A DNA stretch of 64,000 nucleotides. It comes from Bacteroidota bacterium (lineage in GTDB: Bacteria > Bacteroidota > Bacteroidia > Bacteroidales > DTGW01). Each line of letters opens with the position of its first letter. Within the stretch, counting starts at the first letter, position 1. The stretch lies in contig JAKPGM010000075.1 in assembly GCA_029550865.1 (NCBI GenBank), positions 952 through 64,951 of the forward strand. The letters are read 5' to 3'. This document shows, piece after piece, positions 2,514-51,361 of this stretch. Both the position numbers and the translations under genes were made by a program. The notes under the pieces are model-generated. The model saw only the letters and a program-made list of their open reading frames with translations, ran no database searches and was not told where the DNA came from.

Positions 2514-2587
2514 CGGGGTGTGGCGCAGTTGGCTAGCGCGCCTGCTTTGGGAGCAGGAGGCCCCTGGTTCGAGTCCAGGTACCCCGA
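2514..2587 (+). tRNA. tRNA-Pro (anticodon TGG)
   Basis: Hand-folded cloverleaf. Acceptor CGGGGTG/TACCCCG, anticodon arm CCTGC-TTTGGGA-GCAGG, T-loop GGTTCGAGTCC. No encoded CCA. Confidence 0.9.
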
Positions 2588-15938: not shown

Positions 15939-16027
15939 GGAGAGCTGCCAGAGTGGTCGAATGGGGCAGACTCGAAATCTGTTGACCTGCTTATGTGGGT
16001 CCGGGGGTTCGAATCCCTCGCTCTCCG
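15939..16027 (+). tRNA. tRNA-Ser (anticodon CGA), long variable arm
   Basis: Acceptor GGAGAGC/GCTCTCC, anticodon loop CTCGAAA, long extra arm, T-loop GGTTCGAATCC. Confidence 0.9.
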
Positions 16028-17400: not shown

Positions 17401-17474
17401 TGGAGGATAAGGGAATCGAACCCTTGACCTTTTGCATGCCATGCAAACGCTCTAGCCAACTGAGCTAATCCCCC
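17401..17474 (-). tRNA. tRNA-Ala (anticodon GGC)
   Basis: The reverse complement folds as GGGGGAT/ATCCTCC with the G3:U70 alanine identity pair, anticodon loop ATGGCAT and T-loop GGTTCGATTCC. Confidence 0.88.
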
Positions 17475-39329: not shown

Positions 39330-41015
39330 TCATATATTCTGCACCCCATAGGGTACCTGTACCAGTTTGGTTCGGACGATAAAATCGCCCAGACGCTCAT
39401 GCTCGAGACGTTGGGTGGCATATTGTTGTAAAATATCGCGAAGTATGTTTAAAATGGTATCCTCGTCGGCCATTTCACGATAGAGTACATTGAGCCGTGA
39501 GCCCTGTGCATTTGCACCAAGGTATAGGTTGTATTTTCCTATGGTACGACCAACCAGGCCTATTTCACCCAGATAAGGTCGTGCACAGCCATTGGGACAT
39601 CCTGTCATACGAATGTTAATGGGCTCGTTTTCGAGATGGAGTTCGAAAAGTATCTGGTCGATTTTGTCGATGAGCGAAGGAAGGTAGCGTTCGGCTTCGG
39701 CAAAAGCCAGAGGGCATTGATTGAGAGCGGTACATGCCAGTGAATGCTGACGAAGTCCTGTAAGCGGCTTGCGGGAAAGGATACCCTGGAGAATGGCATC
39801 TATTTCTTTTCGAGCATTTTCGTTTACATTAGCAATGATAATATTCTGATTACCAGTAATGATGAAGGTGGGTTGAAATTTCTCTGCAATAAGTTTTAGG
39901 CTTGATTTTAATGGATAGTTTTCCGCATCTTTAATTCTACCAGTTTCGACAAAAAGACAGTAGTGCCATAGGTTGTCATCGCCTTGGGTCCAGCCAAAGC
40001 GGTCGTTATTGGAAATAAATTCAAAGGGGCGTGCTGGCTCCAGTTCAATACCCGAACGTTCGGTAAGCTCTTTTTTGAATGCATCGAGCCCCATGGTTTC
40101 GATAGTGTATTTCAACCGGGCAAATTTACGGTCGCTGCGATTCCCTTTGTCGCGCTGGATTTTGAGAATTTCCTCAACGATTTTCAGCATTTTGTCTTTA
40201 GGCACGAATCCCAGTATGTCACCCAGTCGTGGGTGAGTGGCGGGATCTTCAAAGCTCATACCCATGCCACCACCTGCTAAAACGTTATAGCCGACCAAAC
40301 GATTATTTTCGGCAATGGCAATAAGTCCAATGTCGTTTGAGAAAACGTCGGTATCGTTGTAAGGGGGCACAGCAATGGCAATTTTAAATTTTCGTGGCAG
40401 GTAGGTGGGACCGTAGATAGGTTCTTCGTCCGAACCATTACCAGCAACTTTTTCTTTATCGAGCCAGATTTCGTAATAAGCGCTGGTTTTAGGCAACAGA
40501 TGGTTGCTGATGCGAACGGCATCCAGGAAAGTTTCGAAATGTAACCGCGAAAGGTAGGGATTGGGACTACTCATCACATTTCGATTAACGTCACCGCAGG
40601 TAGCCAGGGTGGTAATCATAATCTGATTAATCTCCTGGATGGTTTTTTTTAGGTTCCTTTTGAGGATACCGTGCAGTTGAAAAGTCTGACGGGTGGTAAG
40701 TTTCATGGTACCATTTCCGTATTTGTCGGCTAGTTCATTAATGGTGAGCCATTGACTACTTGAGATGATGCCAGCGGTAAGACGGGCACGAATCATAAAG
40801 TTATACAACGGCTCAAGCTTCTGTTTTTTGCGTTCGCTCGATAGGTCGCGGTCGGTTTGCTGGTAGCTACCGTGAAATTTGAGAATGTTTGTATCGTCGG
40901 GGGCCAGTGCGCCCGTTATTTCTTCATTGAGACTTTCTACAAGCGTTCCACGCAGATAATTGCTGGCTGCTTTGATTTTTTCAACTTCACTTAATTGGTT
41001 GTTATTGTTTGCCAT
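39330..41015 (-). CDS. cysI: assimilatory sulfite reductase (NADPH) hemoprotein beta-component
   Basis: Siroheme/4Fe-4S cysteine clusters ACTALNQCPLAFAEAERY and TGCPNGCARP. Confidence 0.92.
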   Translation of the reverse strand: MANNNNQLSEVEKIKAASNYLRGTLVESLNEEITGALAPDDTNILKFHGSYQQTDRDLSSERKKQKLEPLYNFMIRARLTAGIISSSQWLTINELADKYGNGTMKLTTRQTFQLHGILKRNLKKTIQEINQIMITTLATCGDVNRNVMSSPNPYLSRLHFETFLDAVRISNHLLPKTSAYYEIWLDKEKVAGNGSDEEPIYGPTYLPRKFKIAIAVPPYNDTDVFSNDIGLIAIAENNRLVGYNVLAGGGMGMSFEDPATHPRLGDILGFVPKDKMLKIVEEILKIQRDKGNRSDRKFARLKYTIETMGLDAFKKELTERSGIELEPARPFEFISNNDRFGWTQGDDNLWHYCLFVETGRIKDAENYPLKSSLKLIAEKFQPTFIITGNQNIIIANVNENARKEIDAILQGILSRKPLTGLRQHSLACTALNQCPLAFAEAERYLPSLIDKIDQILFELHLENEPINIRMTGCPNGCARPYLGEIGLVGRTIGKYNLYLGANAQGSRLNVLYREMADEDTILNILRDILQQYATQRLEHERLGDFIVRTKLVQVPYGVQNI

Positions 41016-41039
41016 GGTTGAAACGTTTTTAAGGTTTTT

Positions 41040-42911
41040 TTAATAGAGATCTTCGTGATAACGATGCTGGCGTTTTATATTTTTTAGATATTCTTTTGCC
41101 TGGTCGTTGCTGATATTTTTGGCTTCCTGAATGATATTCAGCAGGGTGTCCTGTACATCTTTTCCCATTTTTTTACCACCGCACAGGTAAATGTGGGCAC
41201 CATCGTCGATCCACTCGAACACCTCTCTGGCTTTTTGACGTAGGCGATGTTGTACGTATATTTTTTCTGATTGGTCGCGCGACCAGGCCAGGTCGATACG
41301 AGTAAGCAGTTTCTTTTTATACCACTGTTGCCAGTCGGTTTGATACAGGAAGTCGGTAGTAAAGTGGGGATTCCCAAAGAAGAGCCAGGTTTTGTTGTGC
41401 CGCCCATTGGCTTCGATATCCTGCATGAATGCCCGATAGGGTGCTATGCCGGTACCCTGCCCAATCATAATGATGGGCGCTTCATCGGAAGGGAGTCGGA
41501 AACTTTCGTTTTCATGCACGAAAGCTGTAATTACATCACCACCTTTAAGGTCGTTGGCTACAAAGCCTGAGCACATGCCTGTTTTGGGGCGTCCATTGAA
41601 CTGGTATTGCAGTTTTCCAATGGTCAAATGCACTTCACCTTCCTGATATAGCGGACTGGAAGCAATGCTGTACAGGCGTGGTTGAATAGGATACAGCATG
41701 TCGACCAGTTGCTGAGCTTTAAGTTTTACCTTAAATTCTTGCAAAACATCTAAAACATCTCGACCATATATGAATTCACTCAACTTTGCATTATCGTTAA
41801 TGATGGTATTGAGTTCCTCTTTACGGGCGACCTCAGCCAGTTTTCCAAGAAACTCGCGGTTAAGCAGGGTCAGCTCTGTTTTTTGTTCCAGACATTCGCG
41901 AACGGATAATTGAACATTTTGATAAATGATCATTTCTTTGCTATCGATTTTTAGATAACTGAGAATGTCGTCTACCAGTGAAGAAGCATTTCGAAAGTAG
42001 ATTCCCAGCGAGTCACCAGGCTGATAGATGATTTGTTGTTTTTCGTCGATGAGTTCTACGTGGAGGGTATCTTTTGTCGAACCTCGACCATTTAGGTGGA
42101 TAATGTCGCTGACAACGAGTGTGCCGGGTTGTTCACGGGTGAAAATATCGATATTTCGTACCTCTGCTGCAGTTGATTTGCTTGAGGTTGCATACGTAGT
42201 AGCCGACGATACCTGGGGACGATTATTTTTTTCAATTAGCGTCGATATCAGTTCGTTGATCCATTTTTCGGCAGTAGGTTTGAAGTTTACATCGCAATCG
42301 GCACGAGAGATAATTCTTTTGGCCCCCAGGGCATGCAAGCGATTATCGATGTCTTTACCTGTTTTGCAGAAATTGACATAACTTTTATCGCCCAGTGCCA
42401 GCACAGCATATTGTAAATGGTCGAGTTTACCGACTTTGTTGCTATGGATATACGCATAAAACTCTTCGGCCGATAAAGGAGGATCACCTTCCCCCTGCGT
42501 GCTGCAGATGATAATAAGATTTTTTTCTTTTTTAATCTGATGAGGTGGGAAATCGGCAATATCCAGAACATTCACAGCGATATTATTTTCATTTGCTTTA
42601 GCTTCGAGCATTTTGGCTACCTTACGGCTGTTACCGGATTGTGTGGCGAATAGTACGGTATACGTTTCGGTGGTTGTAACAGTAAGCATTTCTTCGACCA
42701 GCACAGTGGCTCCAGCTGGGGAGGTAGTAGGGGGGGAGACGGTAGTTGTACCTGTTTGTGCAATCTGTTGGGTACGCGTACCAATAATACCACTCAGTAA
42801 GCCATGCAGCCAGTACAATTCTTCAATGCTGGCTTTCTTAATTACCTCTTCAATAAACTCGTTATTGCCCATAATTTTTAGGGCAGGTTTGTTATTAGTT
42901 GTGTTTTCCAT
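41040..42911 (-). CDS. cysJ: assimilatory sulfite reductase (NADPH) flavoprotein alpha-component
   Basis: Flavodoxin motif VLFATQSGNSRKVA, FAD motif RLYSIASS, and NADPH domain GTGIAPYRAF. The start could alternatively be the internal Met 14. Confidence 0.9.
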   Translation of the reverse strand: MENTTNNKPALKIMGNNEFIEEVIKKASIEELYWLHGLLSGIIGTRTQQIAQTGTTTVSPPTTSPAGATVLVEEMLTVTTTETYTVLFATQSGNSRKVAKMLEAKANENNIAVNVLDIADFPPHQIKKEKNLIIICSTQGEGDPPLSAEEFYAYIHSNKVGKLDHLQYAVLALGDKSYVNFCKTGKDIDNRLHALGAKRIISRADCDVNFKPTAEKWINELISTLIEKNNRPQVSSATTYATSSKSTAAEVRNIDIFTREQPGTLVVSDIIHLNGRGSTKDTLHVELIDEKQQIIYQPGDSLGIYFRNASSLVDDILSYLKIDSKEMIIYQNVQLSVRECLEQKTELTLLNREFLGKLAEVARKEELNTIINDNAKLSEFIYGRDVLDVLQEFKVKLKAQQLVDMLYPIQPRLYSIASSPLYQEGEVHLTIGKLQYQFNGRPKTGMCSGFVANDLKGGDVITAFVHENESFRLPSDEAPIIMIGQGTGIAPYRAFMQDIEANGRHNKTWLFFGNPHFTTDFLYQTDWQQWYKKKLLTRIDLAWSRDQSEKIYVQHRLRQKAREVFEWIDDGAHIYLCGGKKMGKDVQDTLLNIIQEAKNISNDQAKEYLKNIKRQHRYHEDLY

Positions 42912-44202
42912 GGGAATATACTTTTTTTATCGTGTATTCAATTTTATTCAAAGTGTCATCTAATATTTTCTGGTTATGCGCCAGACTAATGAAGTTGGCT
43001 TCGAATTTTGAGGGAGCAAGATATACATTGAGATCTCGCAGTTGATGGTGAAAATCTGCAAAGAGATTGTCGGAAATTTGCGCTACCGACAGGAAATTTT
43101 CCACTTTTTCGGGAGTCAGAAAAATACTAAACATAGTACCCGAGCTATGAAAGCGGAATTGGTACTTGTCGGCCAGCAATGACATGTTTTTTGAAAAATA
43201 TGCTGCATTATCATGAATTTTTTTAAGAATTCGTGGTTGTGCAAGCAGGGAAAGGGTAGCAAAGCCAGCATTGATAGCAATAGGATTGCCCGATAGGGTA
43301 CCGGCTTGATATACGGGTCCTACGGGTGCTAACAAATCCATAATTTCTTTTCTTCCTCCCACCGCGCCAATAGGGAAGCCCCCTCCAATGATTTTGCCAA
43401 GCGTGGTAAGATCGGTTTTAAAGGCATATTCCTGTTGAGCAGTCACCAGACGGTGTCGGAAACCCGTAATTACCTCATCGGCGATGATAAGGCATTTATA
43501 TTGTTCAGACAATTGCTGAATACGTTCAAGGAAATTGCTCTGGGGTATGATAACGCCCATATTTCCTGGTACAATTTCGAGAATGATAGCTGCTACATTT
43601 TGTCCTTGTTGTTCGAAGAAATGGGTAATCTGGTCGACATCATTAAAGGGTAGGCTAATGGTGTGTCGGACGGTATCGTCGGGTATTCCTTTGCTCGAAG
43701 CCTGTGGTAGAGAGCCTACGCCCGACCCGGCATTCACCAGCAATGCGTCGGAATGTCCATGATAGCAACCATCAAATTTTACGATAATATTTTTACCTGT
43801 ATAGGCCCGGGCTAGTCGTATAGCTGTCATTACAGCTTCGGTACCGGAATTGACCAGCCGAACTTTTTCGATAGAAGGTATACGATTGCAAATAAGGCGA
43901 GCCAGTTCAGTTTCCTCCTGTGTGGGGGCACCAAAGCTGGTTCCTTTTTTTAAGGCATGCTTAACACGCTTAATTACTTTCGGATTTCTATGTCCCAGAA
44001 TAAAAACACCCCACGACAGACAATAATCGGTATATTTATTTCCATCGATATCCCATAGGAATGCATCGTTTGCTTTTTGAACGAAAAATGGGGAGGCGCC
44101 TAATTGCTTCCATGCTCGGATTGGACTGTTGACACCGCCAGGTATATATCGGTTGGCTTCTGCAAAGGCCTTTTGGGATAGTATGTTATTGAACACCTTC
44201 AT
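42895..44202 (-). CDS. hemL: glutamate-1-semialdehyde 2,1-aminomutase
   Basis: IPGGVNSPIRAW N-terminus, class III aminotransferase pattern, and the PLP-lysine context LGKIIGGG. Confidence 0.92.
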   Translation of the reverse strand: MKVFNNILSQKAFAEANRYIPGGVNSPIRAWKQLGASPFFVQKANDAFLWDIDGNKYTDYCLSWGVFILGHRNPKVIKRVKHALKKGTSFGAPTQEETELARLICNRIPSIEKVRLVNSGTEAVMTAIRLARAYTGKNIIVKFDGCYHGHSDALLVNAGSGVGSLPQASSKGIPDDTVRHTISLPFNDVDQITHFFEQQGQNVAAIILEIVPGNMGVIIPQSNFLERIQQLSEQYKCLIIADEVITGFRHRLVTAQQEYAFKTDLTTLGKIIGGGFPIGAVGGRKEIMDLLAPVGPVYQAGTLSGNPIAINAGFATLSLLAQPRILKKIHDNAAYFSKNMSLLADKYQFRFHSSGTMFSIFLTPEKVENFLSVAQISDNLFADFHHQLRDLNVYLAPSKFEANFISLAHNQKILDDTLNKIEYTIKKVYSHGKHN

Positions 44203-45178
44203 ATTTTAATAGTTGTTTGGCTAATATGGTTGAGGCATAAGAAATTATAAAATCGGCTCCTGCTCGTTTTATAGCATAGTGGGTTTCCCACAGTACCGAT
44301 AAAGCATCGGCTATTCCTTTCTCGGCAAGTAGATGGAGCATCATGTATTCGCCAGAAACATGGTATCCTACCAGGGGTATTTGGGGAAACAACTGGCGTG
44401 CACGAAGGATCATGTCAAGGTAGGTATGAGCAGGTTTGATCATAATCCAGTCGGCCCCTTCGGCAATATCGGACTCGATTTCCGATATTCCCTGTCGGAT
44501 AGTACGATAGTCGAGTTGATAGCTTTTACGGTCGCCGAAGGCAGGGGTAGAAAGGGCAGCAGTACGGAAGGGTCCGTAGAAGGCTGAAGCATATTTGGCT
44601 GCATAGGCTAAAATACGAGTTTTGTCGTACCCATTCGAATGCAATGCTTTGTGAATGGCCCATACCTGACCATCCATCATGGCCGAAGGTGCCACAAAAT
44701 CGGCGCCTGCTGCTGCATGGCAAACAGCTACCTGCCCCAGCACTTCAATGGTTTTGTCGTTATTGATGGATTCGTTCTCAATAATACCACAATGCCCATG
44801 CGAAGTGTATGAGCAGAGACAAACATCCGTAAAGACCATTAACTCGGGAAAATGTTTTTTTAGCGTAACAATCGAACGCGAGACAATGTTCTGTTCATCG
44901 TAGGCATACTCGGCATATTCCGATTTTTTATGCTCGTCGGGAATGCCAAATAAAAGAATTTTATTGATTCCCTGCGAAATAGCTTTTTCTACCTCTCTCA
45001 GTAGGCTTTCGGGTGTGTGGTGGTAAACTTCAGCGAAATTTTCTACAGGTAATTTCTCGTGTATTCCTTCTCTAACAAATAATGGATAAATAAAGTTTTC
45101 GGCGGTAAGGTGCACTTCCGCATGGCGATTGCGCGATGCTTCATCTAATCGATATGGATGGTGACGCTTAAATTCCAT
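44186..45178 (-). CDS. hemB: porphobilinogen synthase (Zn-type)
   Basis: Cys-rich Zn site DVCLCSYTSHGHCG and the active-site Lys regions (MIKPA). Confidence 0.92.
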   Translation of the reverse strand: MEFKRHHPYRLDEASRNRHAEVHLTAENFIYPLFVREGIHEKLPVENFAEVYHHTPESLLREVEKAISQGINKILLFGIPDEHKKSEYAEYAYDEQNIVSRSIVTLKKHFPELMVFTDVCLCSYTSHGHCGIIENESINNDKTIEVLGQVAVCHAAAGADFVAPSAMMDGQVWAIHKALHSNGYDKTRILAYAAKYASAFYGPFRTAALSTPAFGDRKSYQLDYRTIRQGISEIESDIAEGADWIMIKPAHTYLDMILRARQLFPQIPLVGYHVSGEYMMLHLLAEKGIADALSVLWETHYAIKRAGADFIISYASTILAKQLLKYEGVQ

Positions 45179-45211: not shown

Positions 45212-47215
45212 TTAAATCACCCAGTCGTCGAAAGGAAGTAGCCCCTGTTCGTAGAGCGCGTTTTTGGTGACATCGCCTTTGGCTATTACCTGTATGTGAG
45301 CGGGTATGCTTTTATAAATCTTTTTAAAGTTCTTCACCCCCGATGGTGAACCAAATGCGATGATGTCGATTTCGGACAGATCGACAGGCTGGACATTTTC
45401 AGGAAGCACATTTTCGTAAACCACAAGCGTATCAACCTGATAGCCCATTTTTCTGAGCAGGTTGGGCATCGTGTTAGGTGAAAGATTTGAGTGTGGAATA
45501 AATACATTTTTGCCTACCAGCGAGTGATTCATAAAAAGGTCGATAATCCCCGACGACGACTCATCGGAAGCTATCCAGTCGGCGTGTAGGTGATATTTTT
45601 CGAGCACACTGGCTGTATTTTTGCCAATAGCGATAATTTGAGCTTTAGCAAAAATGCGTATGTCTTTTTTAACTTTGTTGAGAAGGGATAGGAAGTGCAC
45701 AACGCTCCATCGACTTGTAAATATCAACCAGTTATATTGATCAGCTTTATGAATTATCTGCAGAAGCTGTTCGTTGGGATCAACTTCTTTGATCTGGATG
45801 AGTGGTTTATGGATTACCTTGCCAAGATGTTCGTATGGTTTTGTAGATGAGCTGGTTACCAATATTTTGTTTTGTTTGCTTGGTGTGGCATTGTTTGTTG
45901 GATTAATATGTTCACCTACGATGATAAGTGCAGGAGAATTTACAGTGAGGCTTCCAGAAGCTAAATTTTGAAGTGTAGTGTTTATGGAACGTTCGTTTTC
46001 GCTTCCTGCCGATTCGACGATAATTACTGTGGTATCGGTTTTTTTCCCAGATTCGATTAATTTTTGTGCAATAATCGGAGCATTATGGGCGCCCATATAG
46101 TATACAATGGTATCGGTATTAGGGATGGGCAGATGGTTAGGGTCGTGTGCAGTGCAAAAGCTAACACTTCGAGCTAATTCACGGCGTGTAAGGGGGATTG
46201 CCTGTGTTGCAGCAGCAGCCAAAGCTGAAGTAATACCTGGTATAATTTCGACCTGGACAAACTTTGAAGCAAGGAAATCGTATTCTTCACCCCCACGTCC
46301 AAAAATCATAGGATCGCCGCCTTTGAGCCTAACAACCTGTTTACCGGCTATAGCAGCACGATATATCATTTCATTAATTTCATCCTGTTCGAATGCATGT
46401 TTATCGCGGCGTTTGCCAACATACACCAGTTCTGCTTCGACATTAAGTAAGAATGAGGCATCGAGCAGATCATCGTAAAAAATTATATCGGCTTCGTCAA
46501 TTGCCTGTAAAGCTCGTAGCGTAAGTAAATCGGGATTTCCAGGGCCAAAGCCAACCAGATATACCTTACCATAGTTTTTGCGGATATCGAGCGGATAGAA
46601 AAGGCTTTTCATCTGAGCATTACCGACTCGGGCAACGACCGCCAGATGCCCCTGTAAGGGATGTGTCTTGATAGGAAGCGTTTCTGCAATAAATTCTTCC
46701 AATTCGAGCCGTTTAAGCGCACATTCGGCAACAACCAGGGCGTCAATTTCGCCATTAAAGACCCTGGCAAGTCGCTGGTCGATTGTGCCCCGGATATCTA
46801 CAATTTCGAGGTCGGGGCGGAGTTGACGTATCTGTTCTTGACGACTGGGCGAACTGCAAGCAATTTTAGCACCTGGCTTAAGCTGCGATAATTTTTCCTT
46901 TCGTCGCGAGACCAATACATCGGCATTAGCCAGGCATTCTGTGAGTGCTACCAGTTCCAACCCCTGCGGAAGAGGATAGGGAACATCTTTTGCCGAATGT
47001 ATAGCAATATCGGCTTCATCATTCAGTATGGCTTCATCAAGTTCTTTGGTAAAAAAGTCGGGCATCGTATTTTCTGTCAATGGAATCTCTAAATGTTTAT
47101 CACCGTAGGAAGCTAAAGGAATTAACTTCCAATCAACACCCTTTATTTTTGCCATTACCTCTTGTGCCTGAGCGAGGGATAATCGGCTATTTCTTGCAAC
47201 TACCCTGATTTTCAT
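45212..47215 (-). CDS. triple fusion: HemC-like domains 1-2 (truncated) + uroporphyrinogen-III C-methyltransferase + uroporphyrinogen-III synthase
   Basis: aa 1-205 align with E. coli HemC residues about 5-215 (IRVVARNSRLSLAQA; DIAIHSAKDVP; DIRGTIDQRL). aa about 215-455 are SUMT (VYLVGFGPGNPDLLTLRALQAIDEADIIFYDDL). aa about 460-667 are HemD-like (WLIFTSRWSV; IIAFGSPSGV). Confidence 0.85.
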   Translation of the reverse strand: MKIRVVARNSRLSLAQAQEVMAKIKGVDWKLIPLASYGDKHLEIPLTENTMPDFFTKELDEAILNDEADIAIHSAKDVPYPLPQGLELVALTECLANADVLVSRRKEKLSQLKPGAKIACSSPSRQEQIRQLRPDLEIVDIRGTIDQRLARVFNGEIDALVVAECALKRLELEEFIAETLPIKTHPLQGHLAVVARVGNAQMKSLFYPLDIRKNYGKVYLVGFGPGNPDLLTLRALQAIDEADIIFYDDLLDASFLLNVEAELVYVGKRRDKHAFEQDEINEMIYRAAIAGKQVVRLKGGDPMIFGRGGEEYDFLASKFVQVEIIPGITSALAAAATQAIPLTRRELARSVSFCTAHDPNHLPIPNTDTIVYYMGAHNAPIIAQKLIESGKKTDTTVIIVESAGSENERSINTTLQNLASGSLTVNSPALIIVGEHINPTNNATPSKQNKILVTSSSTKPYEHLGKVIHKPLIQIKEVDPNEQLLQIIHKADQYNWLIFTSRWSVVHFLSLLNKVKKDIRIFAKAQIIAIGKNTASVLEKYHLHADWIASDESSSGIIDLFMNHSLVGKNVFIPHSNLSPNTMPNLLRKMGYQVDTLVVYENVLPENVQPVDLSEIDIIAFGSPSGVKNFKKIYKSIPAHIQVIAKGDVTKNALYEQGLLPFDDWVI

Positions 47216-47226
47216 ATCTTTGTGTT

Positions 47227-48123
47227 TTAAGTATTTGCCAGCAATTGGGTAACATTTGTGCGCGAAAGCTCAGCTTCCTGCCATTGTAAAAATTCCTCAA
47301 CTTGCCTTTCGATGATGTGCATGGCTTCCAGCGATTCTTTCTGGCGGAACGAAAAACTTCGGTTGATAAACTGTTCGATGGTATCGATACCATAATATTG
47401 CACATTGTATCTGCTGGCTACTGCCGGATCGATATTGGGGGGAACGCCAACATCGATAATTTTGTAGGCATTCTGACTAAAGTATGAAGAATCGATGAAG
47501 CTTTCGGGGGCTGCGGCAGCCGCTATCAATATATTGGAATGAGCAAGACCTTCAGTCAGCTGGTTCAGAGGTGCATAAGAGATATTGAGCTCTTTTCCAA
47601 GCATTTCGGCACGCGAAAGGCTGCGATTGAAAAGGGTTAGCTGACGATATCCCTTTTTTAAAAGAAATCGGCAGACATTACGCGTGATTTCGTTTACCCC
47701 TACAATACAAATTGGAGTATCAAGGCTCAGTTGTTCGTAGTATGCAACGATATGATATATTGCATTGGCATAGCTTACCGCGCCTTTGCCAATGTTTGTA
47801 TGACTTCGAACCAGCTTTCCGGTATGCAAAGCACTCTGGAAGAGTCGGTGCATGAACTTGTCAAGTTTTTTTTGCTGACTTGCCTGTAGGTAAGCTGTTT
47901 TTACCTGGTTTTGAATAGATCCATCGCCGGGTACGGGCGAGTCGAGTCCGGCAACAACCCTGTAAAGGTGTCGTACTGTTTCTCGGGCTACTTCGCCACT
48001 TCCCCGGTATATTTCGAGTCGCCAGCAAGTTTTAATGATTACCGTGTAATCCTCGGACTTAAACTTATCAACCCACGGGGAAGGGTCGATATGGCGAACA
48101 TTGTATTGAAGAAGTTGGATCAT
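47227..48123 (-). CDS. hemA: glutamyl-tRNA reductase, short form (298 aa)
   Basis: Catalytic Cys motif KTCWRLEIY (compare TCNRTEIY) and HLYRVVAGLDSPVPGDGSIQNQVK. Ends about 100+ aa before typical GluTRs. Confidence 0.8.
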   Translation of the reverse strand: MIQLLQYNVRHIDPSPWVDKFKSEDYTVIIKTCWRLEIYRGSGEVARETVRHLYRVVAGLDSPVPGDGSIQNQVKTAYLQASQQKKLDKFMHRLFQSALHTGKLVRSHTNIGKGAVSYANAIYHIVAYYEQLSLDTPICIVGVNEITRNVCRFLLKKGYRQLTLFNRSLSRAEMLGKELNISYAPLNQLTEGLAHSNILIAAAAAPESFIDSSYFSQNAYKIIDVGVPPNIDPAVASRYNVQYYGIDTIEQFINRSFSFRQKESLEAMHIIERQVEEFLQWQEAELSRTNVTQLLANT

Positions 48124-48134
48124 ACGATTGCCTT

Positions 48135-48587
48135 TTAGCTGGGTATTTCAAAAAAACGTCGAATGAGATTGCGTACCGAAATAGAACGCAGGACGTCGTT
48201 TCCATTAGAACTCACCGCAATGCTCAGGTACTCTTTGCGGTAAATGGCCGGCGATACAAAGTCGCATTCGGCAGGAGTATCCACCACGTTAATAAGTATG
48301 CCTTTCTGATGGGCATCTTCCTTAATGCGTAGGTTAGTTTCGTGATCGTTGGTGCAGGCATAGATCAAAAAGGCATCGTCGAGGTCCGAAGGTTCGTATT
48401 CTTTTTCCTGCCAGCTAACTTCTTTGAGTTGACGGATTCGAGGGTCTATTTCACGGGCAACGATATGAATTCTATTGGCATAAGGGATCAAGCTGAGTAT
48501 TTTGTGATAGGCTACCCGTCCCCCGCCAATCAGCAATATCTTCTTGTTGTTTACATCAATGGAAATAGGCATGAATGACTTTTTCAT
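48135..48587 (-). CDS. precorrin-2 dehydrogenase / sirohydrochlorin ferrochelatase-like (SirC/CysG N-terminal type)
   Basis: Rossmann motif KKILLIGGGRVAYHKI from ATG 48587. Sits directly upstream of hemA, as in clostridial-type hem operons. Confidence 0.75.
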   Translation of the reverse strand: MKKSFMPISIDVNNKKILLIGGGRVAYHKILSLIPYANRIHIVAREIDPRIRQLKEVSWQEKEYEPSDLDDAFLIYACTNDHETNLRIKEDAHQKGILINVVDTPAECDFVSPAIYRKEYLSIAVSSNGNDVLRSISVRNLIRRFFEIPS

Positions 48588-48644
48588 AATACCTTGTGTT
48601 AAATGTTTGCATGTTATTCTAATACTTACCAGGCTTTTGATCAA

Positions 48645-48866
48645 TCAAATAACATAATCTTCGTCAGCTTTTCTGCCAAATTTGATTTTGTTCCACATCC
48701 GTTCATGCGTATAGTAAAGCAATGTTTTGGTAATTCATTCGGTAGTGCCGATACTAATAGCTAATACAAGTTTACCCGTGATAATCCAAGAAATAATCAT
48801 GGTGTCGAGGGTACCAAGCATGCGCCACGAAATAGCTTTTAACAAACTTCTTTTCCTATTTTCCAT
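48645..48866 (-). pseudogene. DUF2061-like small membrane protein gene with one in-frame TGA (48735-48737)
   Basis: Hand translation: MENRKRSLLKAISWRMLGTLDTMIISWIITGKLVLAISIGTTE-TGA-ITKTLLYYTHERMWNKIKFGRKADEDYVI. The KAISWR...GT and YY.HER.WN pattern matches DUF2061. Each half is under 60 aa, so neither appears in the ORF track. Confidence 0.6.
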
Positions 48867-49105: not shown

Positions 49106-50017
49106 ATGGAAAGAAAAAATTGGCGCATTAATCATTTAAGAGAATTGGAATCGGAAGCCATTTATGTAATTCGAGAGGTAGCAGCACAGTTTGAGCGGCC
49201 TACCTTATTATTTAGTGGTGGTAAAGATTCGATTGTGATGTTTCATATAGCGCGCAAAGCCTTCTGGCCAGCAAAGGTACCTTTTCCGTTATTACATATC
49301 GATACTGGGCATAATTTTCCCGAAACGCTCGAGTTTCGCGATCGACTGATGGAAAAAACAGGTGCTACCTGCATTGTACGCTATGTGCAGGATACCATTG
49401 ATGCGGGTAAGGTAGTTGAGGAAAAAGGACCCAATGCGAGCCGTAACGTTCTTCAAACAGTAACATTGCTCGATGCCATAGAAGAGTTTAAATTTGATGC
49501 AGCCCTGGGCGGAGGACGTCGTGACGAGGAAAAAGCCCGTGCGAAAGAACGATTCTTCTCTCATCGCGATGAGTTTGGACAATGGGACCCAAAGAATCAG
49601 CGTCCCGAATTGTGGAATATTTTTAATGGACGAAAGCATGTAGGCGAACATTTTCGTGTATTTCCGTTGAGCAACTGGACTGAGCTTGATGTTTGGCAAT
49701 ACATTTACCTCGAGAACATTGAAATCCCCAGCCTATATTTTACGCACGAACGCGAAATGATTCTGCGCGATGGTGTACTTTTGCCGCACTGTCCGTATAT
49801 AATGCTGAAACCTACCGATAAAATTGTCAAAAAGAAGGTGCGTTTCCGAACCATCGGGGATATGACCTGTACCGGTGGAGTTGAGTCACCGGCCAACACG
49901 CTCGAGGATATCATCAGGGAAGTAGCTGTTTCGCAAACCACCGAACGGGGTACGCGTTGGGATGACAAACGATCCGAGTCGGCTATGGAAGACCGGAAAA
50001 GAGAAGGTTATTTCTAA
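49106..50017 (+). CDS. cysD: sulfate adenylyltransferase subunit 2
   Basis: PP-loop-like LLFSGGKDS, HIDTGHNFPE, and C-terminal RKREGYF. Confidence 0.93.
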   Translation: MERKNWRINHLRELESEAIYVIREVAAQFERPTLLFSGGKDSIVMFHIARKAFWPAKVPFPLLHIDTGHNFPETLEFRDRLMEKTGATCIVRYVQDTIDAGKVVEEKGPNASRNVLQTVTLLDAIEEFKFDAALGGGRRDEEKARAKERFFSHRDEFGQWDPKNQRPELWNIFNGRKHVGEHFRVFPLSNWTELDVWQYIYLENIEIPSLYFTHEREMILRDGVLLPHCPYIMLKPTDKIVKKKVRFRTIGDMTCTGGVESPANTLEDIIREVAVSQTTERGTRWDDKRSESAMEDRKREGYF

Positions 50018-50080
50018 TGGTTTCTTGCCGCTTTGTGTGCATGTACATTAAAATTAATTAACTGAAAAAACGTAGATTCA

Positions 50081-51361
50081 ATGGGAACGATAAATGAATT
50101 GGTAAAAGAATATCTCGACCGAGAACTGCTTCGATTTACCACTGCCGGCAGTGTTGATGATGGCAAAAGTACCCTCATTGGTCGATTGCTCTATGATAGC
50201 AAGGCCATTTTTGTCGATCAGCTCGAAGCACTTGAAATGGCCAGTAAACGTCGGGGCGAGGAGCAAATTAATTTGGCTTTGCTTACCGATGGTTTGAAAG
50301 CTGAAAGGGAACAAGGGATAACCATCGACGTGGCCTATCGTTATTTTTCCACCCCAAAACGCAAGTTTATCATTGCCGATACACCGGGACATATTCAGTA
50401 CACCCGCAATATGGTAACAGGAGCTTCCACCGCCAATGTTGCCATTATTCTCATTGATGCTCGTAATGGTGTGGTAGAGCAAACTATCCGACATTCCTTC
50501 ATTGCCTCACTACTGAATATACCGCACATCATTGTATGTGTTAACAAGATGGACCTGGTTGATTACAGCGAGCATATTTTCAACAAAATTTGCCAGGACT
50601 ACGAGAGTATTTCGTCCAAGATTTCGGTAAAAGATATTCGATTTATCCCCATTAGTGCGCTAAAAGGTGATAATGTGGTGAATAAATCGGACAAAATGCC
50701 CTGGTACGATGGCCCCAGCTTGATGCATCTTCTCGAAACCATTCATATTACTAACGATATCAACTATGATGATCCACGTTTTCCGGTGCAATATGTTATT
50801 CGGCCAAACACTGATGAGTTTCACGATTATCGGGGGTATGCAGGACGCATTGCCAGTGGAATATTTCGTGTAGGTGATGCAGTAACCGTTTTACCGTCGG
50901 GTTTTACGTCGCGAATTAAGTCTATCGATTTTTTTGGCGAAAGTCTTCAGGAAGCCTACGCCCCTCAGTCGGTGGCTATTCAGATTGAGGACGATATCGA
51001 TATTTCTCGGGGGGATATGTTGGTCCGATCGGATAATTTGCCAACGGTAGGACAGGATGTAGAGTTGATGATATGCTGGCTCAACGAAAAACCTATGCAA
51101 GTGGGGAATAAATACTATCTGCGTCATACAACTACGGGGATGCGATGCATAGTTAAGGAAATTATTTATAAGGTTGATATCAATACGCTCGAAGAGCTTT
51201 CAGGTGGAAATACCTTGCAAATGAATGAAATTGCGAAGATACGCATACGTACTTCACAGCCACTTGTGTATAACTCATATCATATCAATCGAACCACAGG
51301 AAGTCTTATCCTCATTGATGAGGGTACCAATGAAACTGTAGGAGCTGGTATGATCAAGTAG
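50081..51361 (+). CDS. cysN: sulfate adenylyltransferase subunit 1 (GTPase only, no APS kinase domain)
   Basis: G1 motif GSVDDGKSTLIGRLL, plus DTPGH and NKMD. At 426 aa it ends before any CysC-like domain. Confidence 0.92.
   Translation: MGTINELVKEYLDRELLRFTTAGSVDDGKSTLIGRLLYDSKAIFVDQLEALEMASKRRGEEQINLALLTDGLKAEREQGITIDVAYRYFSTPKRKFIIADTPGHIQYTRNMVTGASTANVAIILIDARNGVVEQTIRHSFIASLLNIPHIIVCVNKMDLVDYSEHIFNKICQDYESISSKISVKDIRFIPISALKGDNVVNKSDKMPWYDGPSLMHLLETIHITNDINYDDPRFPVQYVIRPNTDEFHDYRGYAGRIASGIFRVGDAVTVLPSGFTSRIKSIDFFGESLQEAYAPQSVAIQIEDDIDISRGDMLVRSDNLPTVGQDVELMICWLNEKPMQVGNKYYLRHTTTGMRCIVKEIIYKVDINTLEELSGGNTLQMNEIAKIRIRTSQPLVYNSYHINRTTGSLILIDEGTNETVGAGMIK

What the first reader, a model, noticed from the sequence alone, without database searches (positions are those of the whole stretch)
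45212..47215. HemC'-CobA-HemD triple fusion in which the HemC part lacks domain 3 and the dipyrromethane cysteine
- **Architecture:** one 667-aa ORF joins three enzymes of consecutive or adjacent steps. CobA-HemD fusions are known, but an N-terminal HemC addition is unusual.
- **Truncation:** by hand alignment to E. coli HemC, the HemC-like segment stops at about residue 215 (GHLAVVARVGNA against GQGAVGIECRLDD) and runs straight into the SUMT start GKVYLVGFGPG.
- **Missing cofactor site:** all of domain 3 is absent, including the GGC loop whose Cys242 covalently carries the dipyrromethane cofactor. One of the paired substrate-binding arginines is also changed (SSLRRQ becomes SSPSRQ).
- **Implication:** a canonical hydroxymethylbilane synthase cannot work without that cysteine. 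Either a separate domain-3 or hemC gene exists, the cofactor is held differently, or this domain has become a substrate-channelling or binding module.
Basis: partly seen in the sequence, partly recalled or inferred. Interest (0 to 1): 0.65.

Follow-up and report, generated by a model that had tools for sequence, protein, structure and literature searches.

The report
Three-enzyme siroheme fusion with truncated HemC
One gene in a Bacteroidales sulfite-reduction/siroheme operon joins three consecutive tetrapyrrole enzymes, and its first module belongs to a large, apparently undescribed group of porphobilinogen deaminases that lack the whole domain that normally carries the enzyme's covalently bound primer, so how they start the pyrrole chain is an open, testable question.

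Summary
ORF 45212-47215 (-), 667 aa, is HemC domains 1-2 + CobA (SUMT) + HemD. It has no Porphobil_deamC domain and no Cys242, and R131 is replaced by Ser.

It is not an artefact or a rarity. More than 120 90%-identity clusters, mostly Bacteroidales, share the architecture, inside a conserved cysJ-cysI-sirC-hemA-fusion-hemB-hemL-cysDN(H) gene set (same genes, order varies).

All 150 nearest HemC relatives in a 1.8-billion-protein library also lack domain 3. They include stand-alone Chlamydiota HemC, HemC'-HemD, HemA-HemC' and SirC-HemA-HemC'.

HemC' is the best-conserved third of the protein. R11, Q19, F62, K83, D84, S128/129, R132, R149, R155, R176 and Q198 are invariant or nearly so (118-120/120).

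The only invariant cysteine in the whole protein is Cys165 (E. coli position 172, lining the cleft). That position is Ala in 182/182 canonical HemCs and Cys in 84/149 domain-3-less ones.

Best reading: an active HMB-synthase module feeding HemD and CobA for siroheme, with primer handling remodelled and possibly anchored on Cys165. Chlamydia-type relatives have no such cysteine, so the mechanism stays unproven. No second hemC or domain 3 lies in the window. The rest of the genome could not be searched.

The parts
45212..47215 (-). 667-aa ORF: HemC(domains 1-2)-CobA-HemD fusion
46571..47215 (-). HemC' module, aa 1-215 (domains 1 and 2 of hydroxymethylbilane synthase; no domain 3)
   Evidence: Pfam PF01379 at 3-203. 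Aligns to E. coli HemC 6-216. The AF2 model superposes on 2YPN/1AH5 over 216 columns at rmsd 1.6-1.8 A.
46985..46990 (-). Lys76-Asp77 = E. coli K83-D84 (catalytic Asp)
   Evidence: K 118/120 and D 120/120 in the family; 149/149 in representatives
46844..46846 (-). Ser124 = E. coli R131 (binds the acetate of cofactor ring c1); never Arg in the close family
   Evidence: Role of R131/human R149 from PMC7959689 Table 2 and PMC3945110.
46721..46723 (-). Cys165 = E. coli A172; the only invariant Cys of the protein and the candidate alternative thiol
   Evidence: 120/120. 84/149 domain-3-less representatives against 0/182 canonical HemCs. A172 contacts the polypyrrole in MD of E. coli HemC.
46856..46858 (-). 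Cys120 in 'ACSS' (E. coli T127); not conserved, rejected as anchor
   Evidence: Cys in only 5/120 family members
45896..46570 (-). CobA / SUMT module, aa 216-440
   Evidence: PF00590 at 169 bits. TIGR01469 at 248.7 bits, above its cut-off of 185. Foldseek hits to CysG, 1VA0 and 1S4D.
45215..45868 (-). HemD / uroporphyrinogen-III synthase module, aa 450-667
   Evidence: PF02602 at 132.5 bits
47227..48123 (-). hemA, short glutamyl-tRNA reductase (298 aa), immediately upstream
48135..48644 (-). sirC / CysG-N-like NAD-binding protein. 169 aa from TTG; probably 150 aa from the ATG at 48587.
44186..45178 (-). hemB (ALAD), immediately downstream
42895..44202 (-). hemL (GSA aminomutase); overlaps hemB by 17 nt
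39330..42911 (-). cysJ (41040-42911) and cysI (39330-41015): the siroheme-dependent sulfite reductase, the client of the pathway
   Evidence: translations; Pfam of the orthologous genes
49106..51361 (+). cysD and cysN (sulfate adenylyltransferase), divergently transcribed

Best explanation
**What it is**
The ORF is the central 'assembly line' of a self-contained siroheme operon that serves the adjacent CysJI sulfite reductase.
- HemA, HemL and HemB make porphobilinogen.
- The N-terminal HemC' module (domains 1-2 only) polymerises four porphobilinogens into the linear tetrapyrrole.
- The C-terminal HemD module cyclises it to uroporphyrinogen III.
- The central CobA module methylates that to precorrin-2.
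- The small SirC-like protein finishes siroheme.

**How HemC' probably works**
HemC' is an active enzyme of a distinct domain-3-less lineage of hydroxymethylbilane synthases.
- The catalytic Asp and the substrate and elongation arginines are unchanged.
- The two elements that hold cofactor ring c1 in canonical enzymes (Cys242 on domain 3, and Arg131) are gone.
- A new, invariant cysteine (Cys165 = E. coli position 172) lines the cleft at the N-terminus of the helix that carries Arg176.
- Most likely this thiol takes over anchoring of the primer or of the growing chain.

**Shown and inferred**
- Shown: the anatomy, the conservation pattern, the operon context, the distribution.
- Inferred: catalytic activity (about 0.75), and Cys165 as the anchor (about 0.5, given activity).
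For: **Gene context**
- Homologues of 46% identity sit in the same gene set: cysJ-cysI-sirC-hemA-fusion-hemB-hemL-cysD-cysN(-cysH).
- An 87%-identity homologue has the window's own order, with cysDN divergent upstream and cysJ-cysI downstream of hemL.
- None of these clusters has any other hemC or domain 3. A domain-3 HMM was negative on the window and on 6 related loci, with 65 controls positive; tblastn was also negative.

**Selection**
- HemC' is the most conserved module.
  - dN is 0.052, against 0.098 (CobA) and 0.102 (HemD), versus an 87%-identity homologue with saturated dS.
  - Mean identity across 61 homologues is 54%, against 51% and 38%.

**Active site**
- R11, Q19, F62, K83, D84, S128, S129, R132, R149, R155, R176, Q198 and G199 are invariant or nearly so (118-120/120).
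- TIGR00212 scores 181.7, above its cut-off of 164, even without domain 3.

**Fold**
- AF2 gives pLDDT 90.7. HemC' superposes on E. coli HMBS at rmsd 1.6-1.8 A over 216 columns.

**Cys165**
- It is the only invariant Cys in 120 full-length homologues.
- The position is Ala in 62 diverse and 120 Bacteroidales-proximal canonical HemCs, so 0/182 carry Cys.
- It is Cys in 84/149 domain-3-less representatives: one large subclade plus 6 separate occurrences.
- It is 2 residues after the Ala whose NH binds the acetate of ring c2.
- It is one helical turn before the Arg that binds the propionate of ring c2 (PMC7959689 Table 2).
- A172 contacts the polypyrrole in MD of E. coli HemC (PMC3945110 Table 1).

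**Loss of R131**
- R131L abolishes cofactor binding in E. coli (PMC3945110 citing Lander 1991).
- Loss of R131 accompanies Cys172: 72 nonR/Cys and 54 R/nonCys, against 23 mixed.

**Related fusions**
- Other domain-3-less HemCs are fused to HemD, HemA or SirC-HemA. They behave as pathway enzymes, not as regulators.
Against: - No enzymology exists for any domain-3-less HemC that I could find.
- The stand-alone Chlamydiota family and most HemC'-HemD proteins keep R131 and Ala172. They have no invariant cysteine at all: position 75 is Cys in 82%, position 145 in 84%, position 218 in 74%. Domain-3-less HemCs as a group therefore cannot depend on Cys172. An Omnitrophota triple fusion has Ser there.
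- In the accepted mechanism the cofactor cysteine sits on a mobile loop that retreats as the chain grows (PMC7959689, PMC8561815). A cysteine fixed on a domain-2 helix could not do that in the same way.
- The R131/Cys172 coupling is largely one phylogenetic event.
- The genome outside the 64-kb window could not be searched for a canonical hemC.
Confidence: 0.6

Rival explanations
1. HemC' is active but uses no covalent protein anchor. The primer or growing chain is held only by the arginine/serine cleft, or the first pyrrole is free. The linear tetrapyrrole (hydroxymethyl- or aminomethyl-bilane) is handed directly to the fused HemD. On this view Cys165 is a clade-specific structural or redox residue.
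For: - The Chlamydia-type stand-alone and most HemC'-HemD relatives lack domain 3 and have no invariant Cys, yet keep every active-site residue at 116-120/120.
- In Chlamydiota it is the protein that sources name hydroxymethylbilane synthase.
- An Omnitrophota triple fusion has Ser at position 172.
- Frequent fusion to HemD would suit direct hand-off.
Against: - It does not explain why Cys165 is 120/120 invariant at a site that is Ala in 182/182 canonical enzymes.
- It does not explain why that is the only invariant Cys in 667 residues.
- In E. coli, loss of cofactor binding (R131L/R132L) inactivates the enzyme.
- No precedent for a cofactor-free HMBS was found in the literature searched.
Confidence: 0.22
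2. HemC' is a catalytically dead porphobilinogen/bilane-binding module (scaffold, channel or sensor). HMB is made by a canonical HemC encoded elsewhere in the genome.
For: - Cys242 and R131, both required in E. coli HemC, are missing.
- Canonical 295-314-aa HemCs do exist in Bacteroidales, e.g. Porphyromonas pogonae.
- The rest of this genome was not available.
Against: - The catalytic Asp84, K83 and all the elongation arginines are invariant or nearly so (118-120/120), and HemC' evolves more slowly than CobA and HemD.
- The operon carries hemA, hemL and hemB, which would be pointless without a HemC step.
- The review-type comparison PMC13096392 says most of the Bacteroidota it analysed lack HemA/L/B/C.
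- No contig-length coincidence was seen between canonical Bacteroidales HemC hits and fusion-bearing contigs. This is weak evidence.
Confidence: 0.13
3. Domain 3 with its cysteine is supplied in trans by a separate small gene.
For: Nothing positive. It is a formal possibility, because domain 3 is an autonomous fold.
Against: - The domain-3 HMM run with --max found nothing in the six-frame window (64 kb).
- It found nothing in +/-10 kb around four triple-fusion homologues (L002, L004, L085, L005) or in two shorter related loci (L086, L078).
- It found nothing in 269 family proteins.
- It hit 65 controls.
Confidence: 0.04

Closest known systems
Canonical hydroxymethylbilane synthase (E. coli HemC, PDB 1PDA/2YPN; human HMBS 3ECR/7CCX)
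   Same: - Domains 1-2 have the same fold (rmsd 1.6-1.8 A).
- The catalytic Asp, K83, S128/129, R11, R132, R149, R155, R176 and Q198 are the same.
   Different: - No domain 3, no Cys242 and no R131.
- G173 is Ala, and A172 is an invariant Cys.
- It is fused to CobA and HemD.
CobA-HemD (SUMT/UroS) bifunctional proteins (e.g. NCBIfam NF005524/PRK07168; described from memory in Desulfovibrio vulgaris, Clostridium josui and Lactobacillus reuteri)
   Same: Residues 216-667 have that architecture and order. In many phyla a separate hemC lies immediately upstream of such a gene.
   Different: Here hemC is fused in frame and has lost domain 3.
Full-length HemC-CobA-HemD fusion in a Prevotella MAG (L059, 852 aa)
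   Same: Same three enzymes in the same order, between hemA and hemB-hemL.
   Different: L059 keeps Porphobil_deamC, Cys242, R131 and Ala172, and sits next to a full-length 415-aa hemA.
Chlamydia-type short HemC (NCBIfam NF002202/PRK01066, 241-position model; Chlamydiota proteins of 215-245 aa)
   Same: Also lacks domain 3 entirely, and falls in the same domain-3-less clade.
   Different: - Stand-alone.
- Keeps R131 and Ala172.
- Has no invariant Cys.
- The query scores 183.6, below the model's cut-off of 251.
CysG siroheme synthase (Salmonella, PDB 1PJS/6P5X)
   Same: A multifunctional siroheme enzyme. The SUMT module is the top structural match.
   Different: - CysG fuses SUMT to the dehydrogenase/chelatase.
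- Here SUMT is fused to the two upstream enzymes, and the CysG-N-like protein is separate and short.
- NF007922 scores 262, below its cut-off of 400.

Membership tests
Hydroxymethylbilane synthase (HemC, EC 2.5.1.61) | Domains 1-2 (PF01379), a periplasmic-binding-protein-like cleft | tested here: met
   PF01379 at 179 bits, profile 1-206/207. Foldseek to 2YPN at rmsd 1.6 A over 216 columns.
Hydroxymethylbilane synthase (HemC, EC 2.5.1.61) | Catalytic Asp84 and the substrate/elongation residues R11, R149, R155, R176, K83, S128/129, Q198 | tested here: met
   All present, and invariant or nearly so (118-120/120) in the homologues
Hydroxymethylbilane synthase (HemC, EC 2.5.1.61) | Arg131/Arg132 pair that binds the cofactor | tested here: not met
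   R131 is Ser124 and is never Arg in the family. R132 is kept.
Hydroxymethylbilane synthase (HemC, EC 2.5.1.61) | Domain 3 (PF03900) bearing the Cys that carries the dipyrromethane cofactor | tested here: not met
   No PF03900 hit. TIGR00212 stops at position 218 of 293. The custom domain-3 HMM is negative.
Hydroxymethylbilane synthase (HemC, EC 2.5.1.61) | Converts porphobilinogen to hydroxymethylbilane; carries a dipyrromethane | not testable with these tools
   Needs an enzyme assay and mass spectrometry
Uroporphyrinogen-III C-methyltransferase (CobA/SUMT) | PF00590 fold and an equivalog-level score | tested here: met
   TIGR01469 at 248.7, above cut-off 185. NF004790 at 256.2, above cut-off 198. 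GxGPG motif GFGPGNPDLLT.
Uroporphyrinogen-III synthase (HemD) | PF02602 (HEM4) two-lobe fold | tested here: met
   132.5 bits against a cut-off of 27.5, profile 12-215/231. The NCBIfam equivalog models are below their cut-offs.
Chlamydia-type short HemC (NF002202) | Score at or above the curated cut-off; stand-alone protein of about 240 aa with a full arginine set | tested here: not met
   183.6, below cut-off 251. Fused, R131 lost, Cys172 gained.
Siroheme synthase CysG | SUMT fused to the NAD-dependent dehydrogenase/ferrochelatase | tested here: not met
   NF007922 at 262, below cut-off 400, matching only the SUMT half. The CysG-N-like protein is a separate gene at 48135-48644.

The most novel reading that the evidence does not exclude
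Domain-3-less HemCs form a mechanistically distinct class of hydroxymethylbilane synthase. This covers the Bacteroidales fusion, Chlamydiota HemC, and the HemC'-HemD, HemA-HemC' and SirC-HemA-HemC' proteins. On this reading they start and count the tetrapyrrole chain without the canonical Cys242-dipyrromethane on a mobile domain-3 loop. In the fusion subclade the anchor would have moved to a domain-2 cysteine (Cys165), perhaps as a transient thioether. In the Chlamydia type there would be no fixed covalent anchor at all.
Probability: 0.4. Interest if true: 0.85.

Novelty: new variant of a known kind. Interest (0 to 1): 0.63.

Why it matters
**Why the absence of domain 3 is surprising**
- The covalently bound dipyrromethane on the domain-3 cysteine is textbook chemistry for hydroxymethylbilane synthase.
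- It is also the basis for how the enzyme is thought to prime, translocate and count four pyrroles.
- Here a large and strongly conserved lineage lacks that domain altogether. It is embedded in otherwise complete siroheme operons, and in Chlamydiota it is the protein annotated as HemC.
- So either the anchor can be relocated, or it is dispensable. Either answer would revise the mechanism.

**Practical consequences**
- It would give a natural 215-residue minimal HMBS.
- It would give a single-polypeptide porphobilinogen-to-precorrin-2 catalyst, useful for siroheme and B12 pathway engineering.
- It bears on annotation. These proteins are named only 'uroporphyrinogen-III C-methyltransferase' or 'methyltransferase/synthase', so annotation that goes by product name will not show the HemC step.

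Tried and rejected
**Hypotheses rejected**
- Cys120 in 'ACSS' (E. coli T127), next to the substrate serines, as the new anchor. Only 5/120 homologues have Cys there.
- A conserved Cys elsewhere in the fusion (linker, CobA, HemD). None exists; Cys165 is the only invariant one.
- A second hemC or a stand-alone domain 3 in the window or next to homologues. tblastn and a custom HMM were both negative.
- Assembly or frameshift artefact. Rejected by the identical protein on 5 contigs and by the conserved junction.
- Cys172 as a universal feature of domain-3-less HemCs. Chlamydia-type and most HemC'-HemD proteins have Ala there.

**Searches that gave little**
It returned mostly adjacent hemC + cobA-hemD genes from other phyla rather than named Bacteroidales. 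Those served instead as a canonical control set.
- Looking for co-occurrence with a canonical HemC by matching contig lengths found none. This is uninformative as a negative.
- The literature searches found no description of domain-3-less HemC or of this fusion.
- The Dailey 2017 review is not held.
- The afdb50 fold library was unavailable.
- Rfam and promoter/terminator scans showed nothing relevant.
- dN/dS proper could not be computed, because dS is saturated.
Full report
**1. The observation**

The ORF is real: 45212..47215 on the minus strand, ATG to TAA, 667 aa.
- Pfam gives three clean domains and nothing else:
  - Porphobil_deam at residues 3-203, covering profile positions 1-206 of 207;
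  - TP_methylase at 217-418;
  - HEM4 at 465-659.
- No Porphobil_deamC match appears, even at E<=1.
- NCBIfam's hemC model TIGR00212 aligns only to its positions 1-218 of 293. Its score of 181.7 still exceeds the 164 cut-off.
- The phmmer alignment to E. coli HemC (PDB 1YPN/1AH5) spans E. coli residues 6-216.
  - It includes SSLRRQ -> SSPSRQ, so R131 is Ser124 and R132 is Arg125.
- In the AlphaFold2 model (mean pLDDT 90.7, pTM 0.64) the last HemC helices end at residue 214. The first SUMT strand starts at 218.
- CobA therefore begins exactly where the hinge to domain 3 would be.
- Foldseek superposes the HemC' part on E. coli HMBS over 216 columns at rmsd 1.6-1.8 A. The TM-score normalised to the target is about 0.63, which corresponds to two of its three domains.

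**2. Not an artefact, not a rarity**
- The identical protein occurs on 5 contigs from several sources. One source names it 'uroporphyrinogen-III C-methyltransferase [Bacteroidales bacterium]'.
- All 120 listed homologue clusters carry the same three Pfam domains and never PF03900.
  - They are 629-709 aa long and 43-100% identical.
  - The named ones are Tannerella, Tannerellaceae, Paludibacter, Candidatus Azobacteroides and termite gut.
- The junction is conserved: F206, D210, R212 and G216 are invariant.

**3. Context**

On the minus strand the order is:
- a DUF2061 ORF;
- sirC, CysG-N-like, 150-169 aa;
- hemA, 298 aa;
- the fusion;
- hemB;
- hemL;
- cysJ;
- cysI.

cysD-cysN are transcribed divergently.

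The same gene set surrounds three homologues.
- An 87%-identity homologue (L085) has the window's own order: cysDN divergent upstream and cysJ-cysI downstream of hemL.
- Two 46%-identity homologues have it rearranged, with cysJ-cysI upstream of sirC. One lies on a 2.56-Mb contig (L002). The other is a Paludibacter MAG (L004), where an extra hydrolase ORF sits between hemA and the fusion and cysN/cysH lie upstream.

This is a self-contained route from glutamyl-tRNA to siroheme beside its client, the sulfite reductase.

**4. Is there another HemC or a domain 3?**
- tblastn with E. coli HemC, and with its domain 3 alone, hits only this ORF in the 64-kb window.
- I built a domain-3 HMM from 56 canonical HemCs of many phyla and ran it without filters against three sets:
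  - the six-frame translation of the window;
  - six related loci (four with +/-10 kb flanks, two shorter);
  - all 269 family and representative proteins.
- It found nothing with E<1, while it hit 65 controls.
- The rest of the genome is not available to me. This stays the main untested point.

**5. The truncation defines a large clade**
- An exhaustive phmmer search with residues 1-215 against 1.84 billion representatives gave 12,408 HemC homologues.
- The best 150 all lack domain 3.
- Their architectures are:

| Architecture | Length |
|---|---|
| HemC'-CobA-HemD | about 650 aa |
| HemC'-HemD | about 400-460 aa |
| HemC'-CobA | – |
| HemA-HemC' | 509 and 558 aa |
| SirC-HemA-HemC' | 698-716 aa |
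| HemC'-NIR_SIR-TusA | 841 aa |
| stand-alone | 210-254 aa |

- Source names place the 558-aa HemA-HemC' form in Elusimicrobia, the SirC-HemA-HemC' form in Armatimonadota and the stand-alone form in Chlamydiota.
- A search seeded with the Chlamydiota protein returned 120 further stand-alone proteins of 213-286 aa carrying PF01379 only.
  - One is from Candidatus Protochlamydia phocaeensis.
  - Several lie on 1-2 Mb contigs.
- NCBIfam's 241-position 'hydroxymethylbilane synthase' model NF002202 aligns to the query over its positions 20-235. It therefore models such a short form.
- In a neighbour-joining tree of domains 1-2, the 149 domain-3-less sequences separate cleanly from 62 canonical ones. 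One caveat applies: the former were chosen as the query's nearest relatives.
- A Prevotella MAG (L059) carries an 852-aa HemC-CobA-HemD fusion with Porphobil_deamC intact.
  - It lies between a 415-aa hemA and hemB-hemL.
  - So the triple fusion exists in both full and truncated forms.

**6. Is HemC' under selection as an enzyme?**
- Against an 87%-identity homologue, dN is 0.052 for HemC', 0.098 for CobA and 0.102 for HemD. dS is saturated.
- Across 61 homologues, mean identity to the query is 54%, 51% and 38% respectively.
- In E. coli numbering, these residues are invariant or nearly so (118-120/120):
  - R11, Q19, F62, K83, D84, S128 and S129;
  - R132, R149, R155, R176, Q198 and G199.
- R131 is never Arg in the family (T, A, L, Q or S).
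- In E. coli, R131L and R132L abolish cofactor binding. The other arginines act in initiation and elongation (PMC3945110, citing Jordan & Woodcock 1991 and Lander et al. 1991).
- In human HMBS crystal structures, Arg149 (= R131) binds the acetate of the ring in site 2. In the holoenzyme that ring is cofactor ring c1, the one attached to the cysteine (PMC7959689 Table 2).
- So the catalytic and elongation machinery is intact. Both elements that hold ring c1 (Cys242 and R131) are gone.

**7. A candidate replacement thiol**
- Cys120 (E. coli T127), next to the serines, is not conserved (5/120).
- Cys165, in 'VVAECALKRL', is 120/120. It is the only invariant cysteine in the whole 667-residue alignment.
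- It aligns with E. coli A172 (human A191).
- That position is Ala in 62/62 diverse canonical HemCs.
- It is also Ala in 120/120 canonical HemCs nearest to Bacteroidales, all of which have R131 and C242.
- Among the 149 domain-3-less representatives it is Cys in 84, Ala in 57 and Val in 7.
- The Cys forms one large subclade (78 of the 84) plus six scattered occurrences.
- The position lies two residues after the Ala whose backbone NH binds the acetate of ring c2.
- It lies one helical turn before the Arg that binds the propionate of ring c2.
- In MD simulations of E. coli HemC, A172 contacts the polypyrrole from the tetrapyrrole stage onward.
- In the model it sits at the first turn of helix 164-169.
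- Loss of R131 and gain of Cys172 go together: 72 nonR/Cys and 54 R/nonCys, against 23 mixed. Much of that reflects a single lineage.

**8. What limits the inference**
- The Chlamydia-type family keeps every active-site residue including R131, has Ala172 in 116/120, and has no invariant cysteine.
  - The commonest Cys positions are 145 (84%), 75 (82%) and 218 (74%).
  - Most HemC'-HemD proteins are the same.
- An Omnitrophota triple fusion has Ser at position 172.
- Domain-3-less HemCs as a class therefore do not depend on Cys172.
- The current mechanism has the cysteine on a mobile loop that retreats as the chain grows. A helix-borne cysteine could not do this in the same way.
- I could not measure distances in the model.
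- I found no paper describing these proteins.

**9. Conclusion**

| Reading | Probability |
|---|---|
| Active HMB-synthase module feeding the fused HemD and CobA for siroheme | about 0.75 |
| Primer or chain anchored on Cys165, given activity | about 0.5 |
| Cofactor-free catalysis with no covalent anchor | 0.22 |
| Dead binding module, with a canonical HemC elsewhere | 0.13 |
| Domain 3 supplied in trans | 0.04 |

- In the favoured reading the handling of the primer is remodelled.
- The protein belongs to the SUMT and HemD families.
- As a HemC it fails two defining features: domain 3 with its cysteine, and R131.
- It is best filed as a new variant, a domain-3-less lineage of a known enzyme.

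Noticed in passing
window 47227-48123 (-): hemA encodes only 298 aa.
- GlutR_N matches only profile positions 89-151.
- The dimerisation domain is essentially absent (TIGR01035 matches 93-345 of 416).
- A 'KTCWRLE' motif at residue 33 looks like the catalytic-Cys motif; that reading is from memory.
- The short form (296-318 aa) is conserved next to the fusion in relatives. The Prevotella locus with the full-length fusion has a 415-aa hemA.
   Followed up: partly
window 48135-48644 (-): The SirC/CysG-N-like protein has only the NAD_binding_7 domain. It is 169 aa from TTG, and probably 150 aa from the ATG at 48587, as in the 87%-identity homologue. It lacks the C-terminal dimerisation and chelatase-associated parts of CysG-B/Met8p. 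How iron is inserted is therefore unclear.
   Followed up: partly
window 48648-48866 (-): A conserved small DUF2061 ORF heads the operon in relatives (73-76 aa). Here it carries an in-frame TGA at codon 44 (TE*ITK against TELLTK). This could be a pseudogene, a sequencing error or recoding.
   Followed up: partly
P0170 (841 aa, representative library): A domain-3-less HemC fused to NIR_SIR/NIR_SIR_ferr (the sulfite/nitrite reductase haemoprotein) and a C-terminal TusA domain. This is a cofactor-pathway enzyme fused to the cofactor's client.
   Followed up: no
P0241/P0263 (Armatimonadota, 698-716 aa); P0198 (Elusimicrobia, 558 aa); P0156 (509 aa): SirC-HemA-HemC' and HemA-HemC' fusions in which the domain-3-less HemC is C-terminal and ends within 3-9 residues of domain 1.
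   Followed up: partly
L059 9995-12553 (+), Prevotella sp. MAG SUG325: An 852-aa HemC-CobA-HemD fusion that retains Porphobil_deamC, Cys242, R131 and Ala172. It is a natural full-length counterpart of the window's protein.
   Followed up: partly
E. coli position 173 in all alignments (query Ala166): Gly173 is invariant in 120 canonical HemCs. It is Ala in 144/149 domain-3-less representatives and in 120/120 Chlamydia-type proteins. This is a second signature of the clade in the helix N-terminus that lines the cleft.
   Followed up: no
L005 9962-12019 (+), Candidatus Omnitrophota MAG: A domain-3-less triple fusion (38% identity) has Ser rather than Cys at position 172, and Leu at position 131.
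   Followed up: no
window 44186-44202 and 42895-42911: hemB/hemL and hemL/cysJ each overlap by 17 nt. This suggests translational coupling along the operon.
   Followed up: no
window 2514-2587 (+), 15939-16027 (+), 17401-17474 (-): Three tRNA genes were the only Rfam matches in the window.
   Followed up: no
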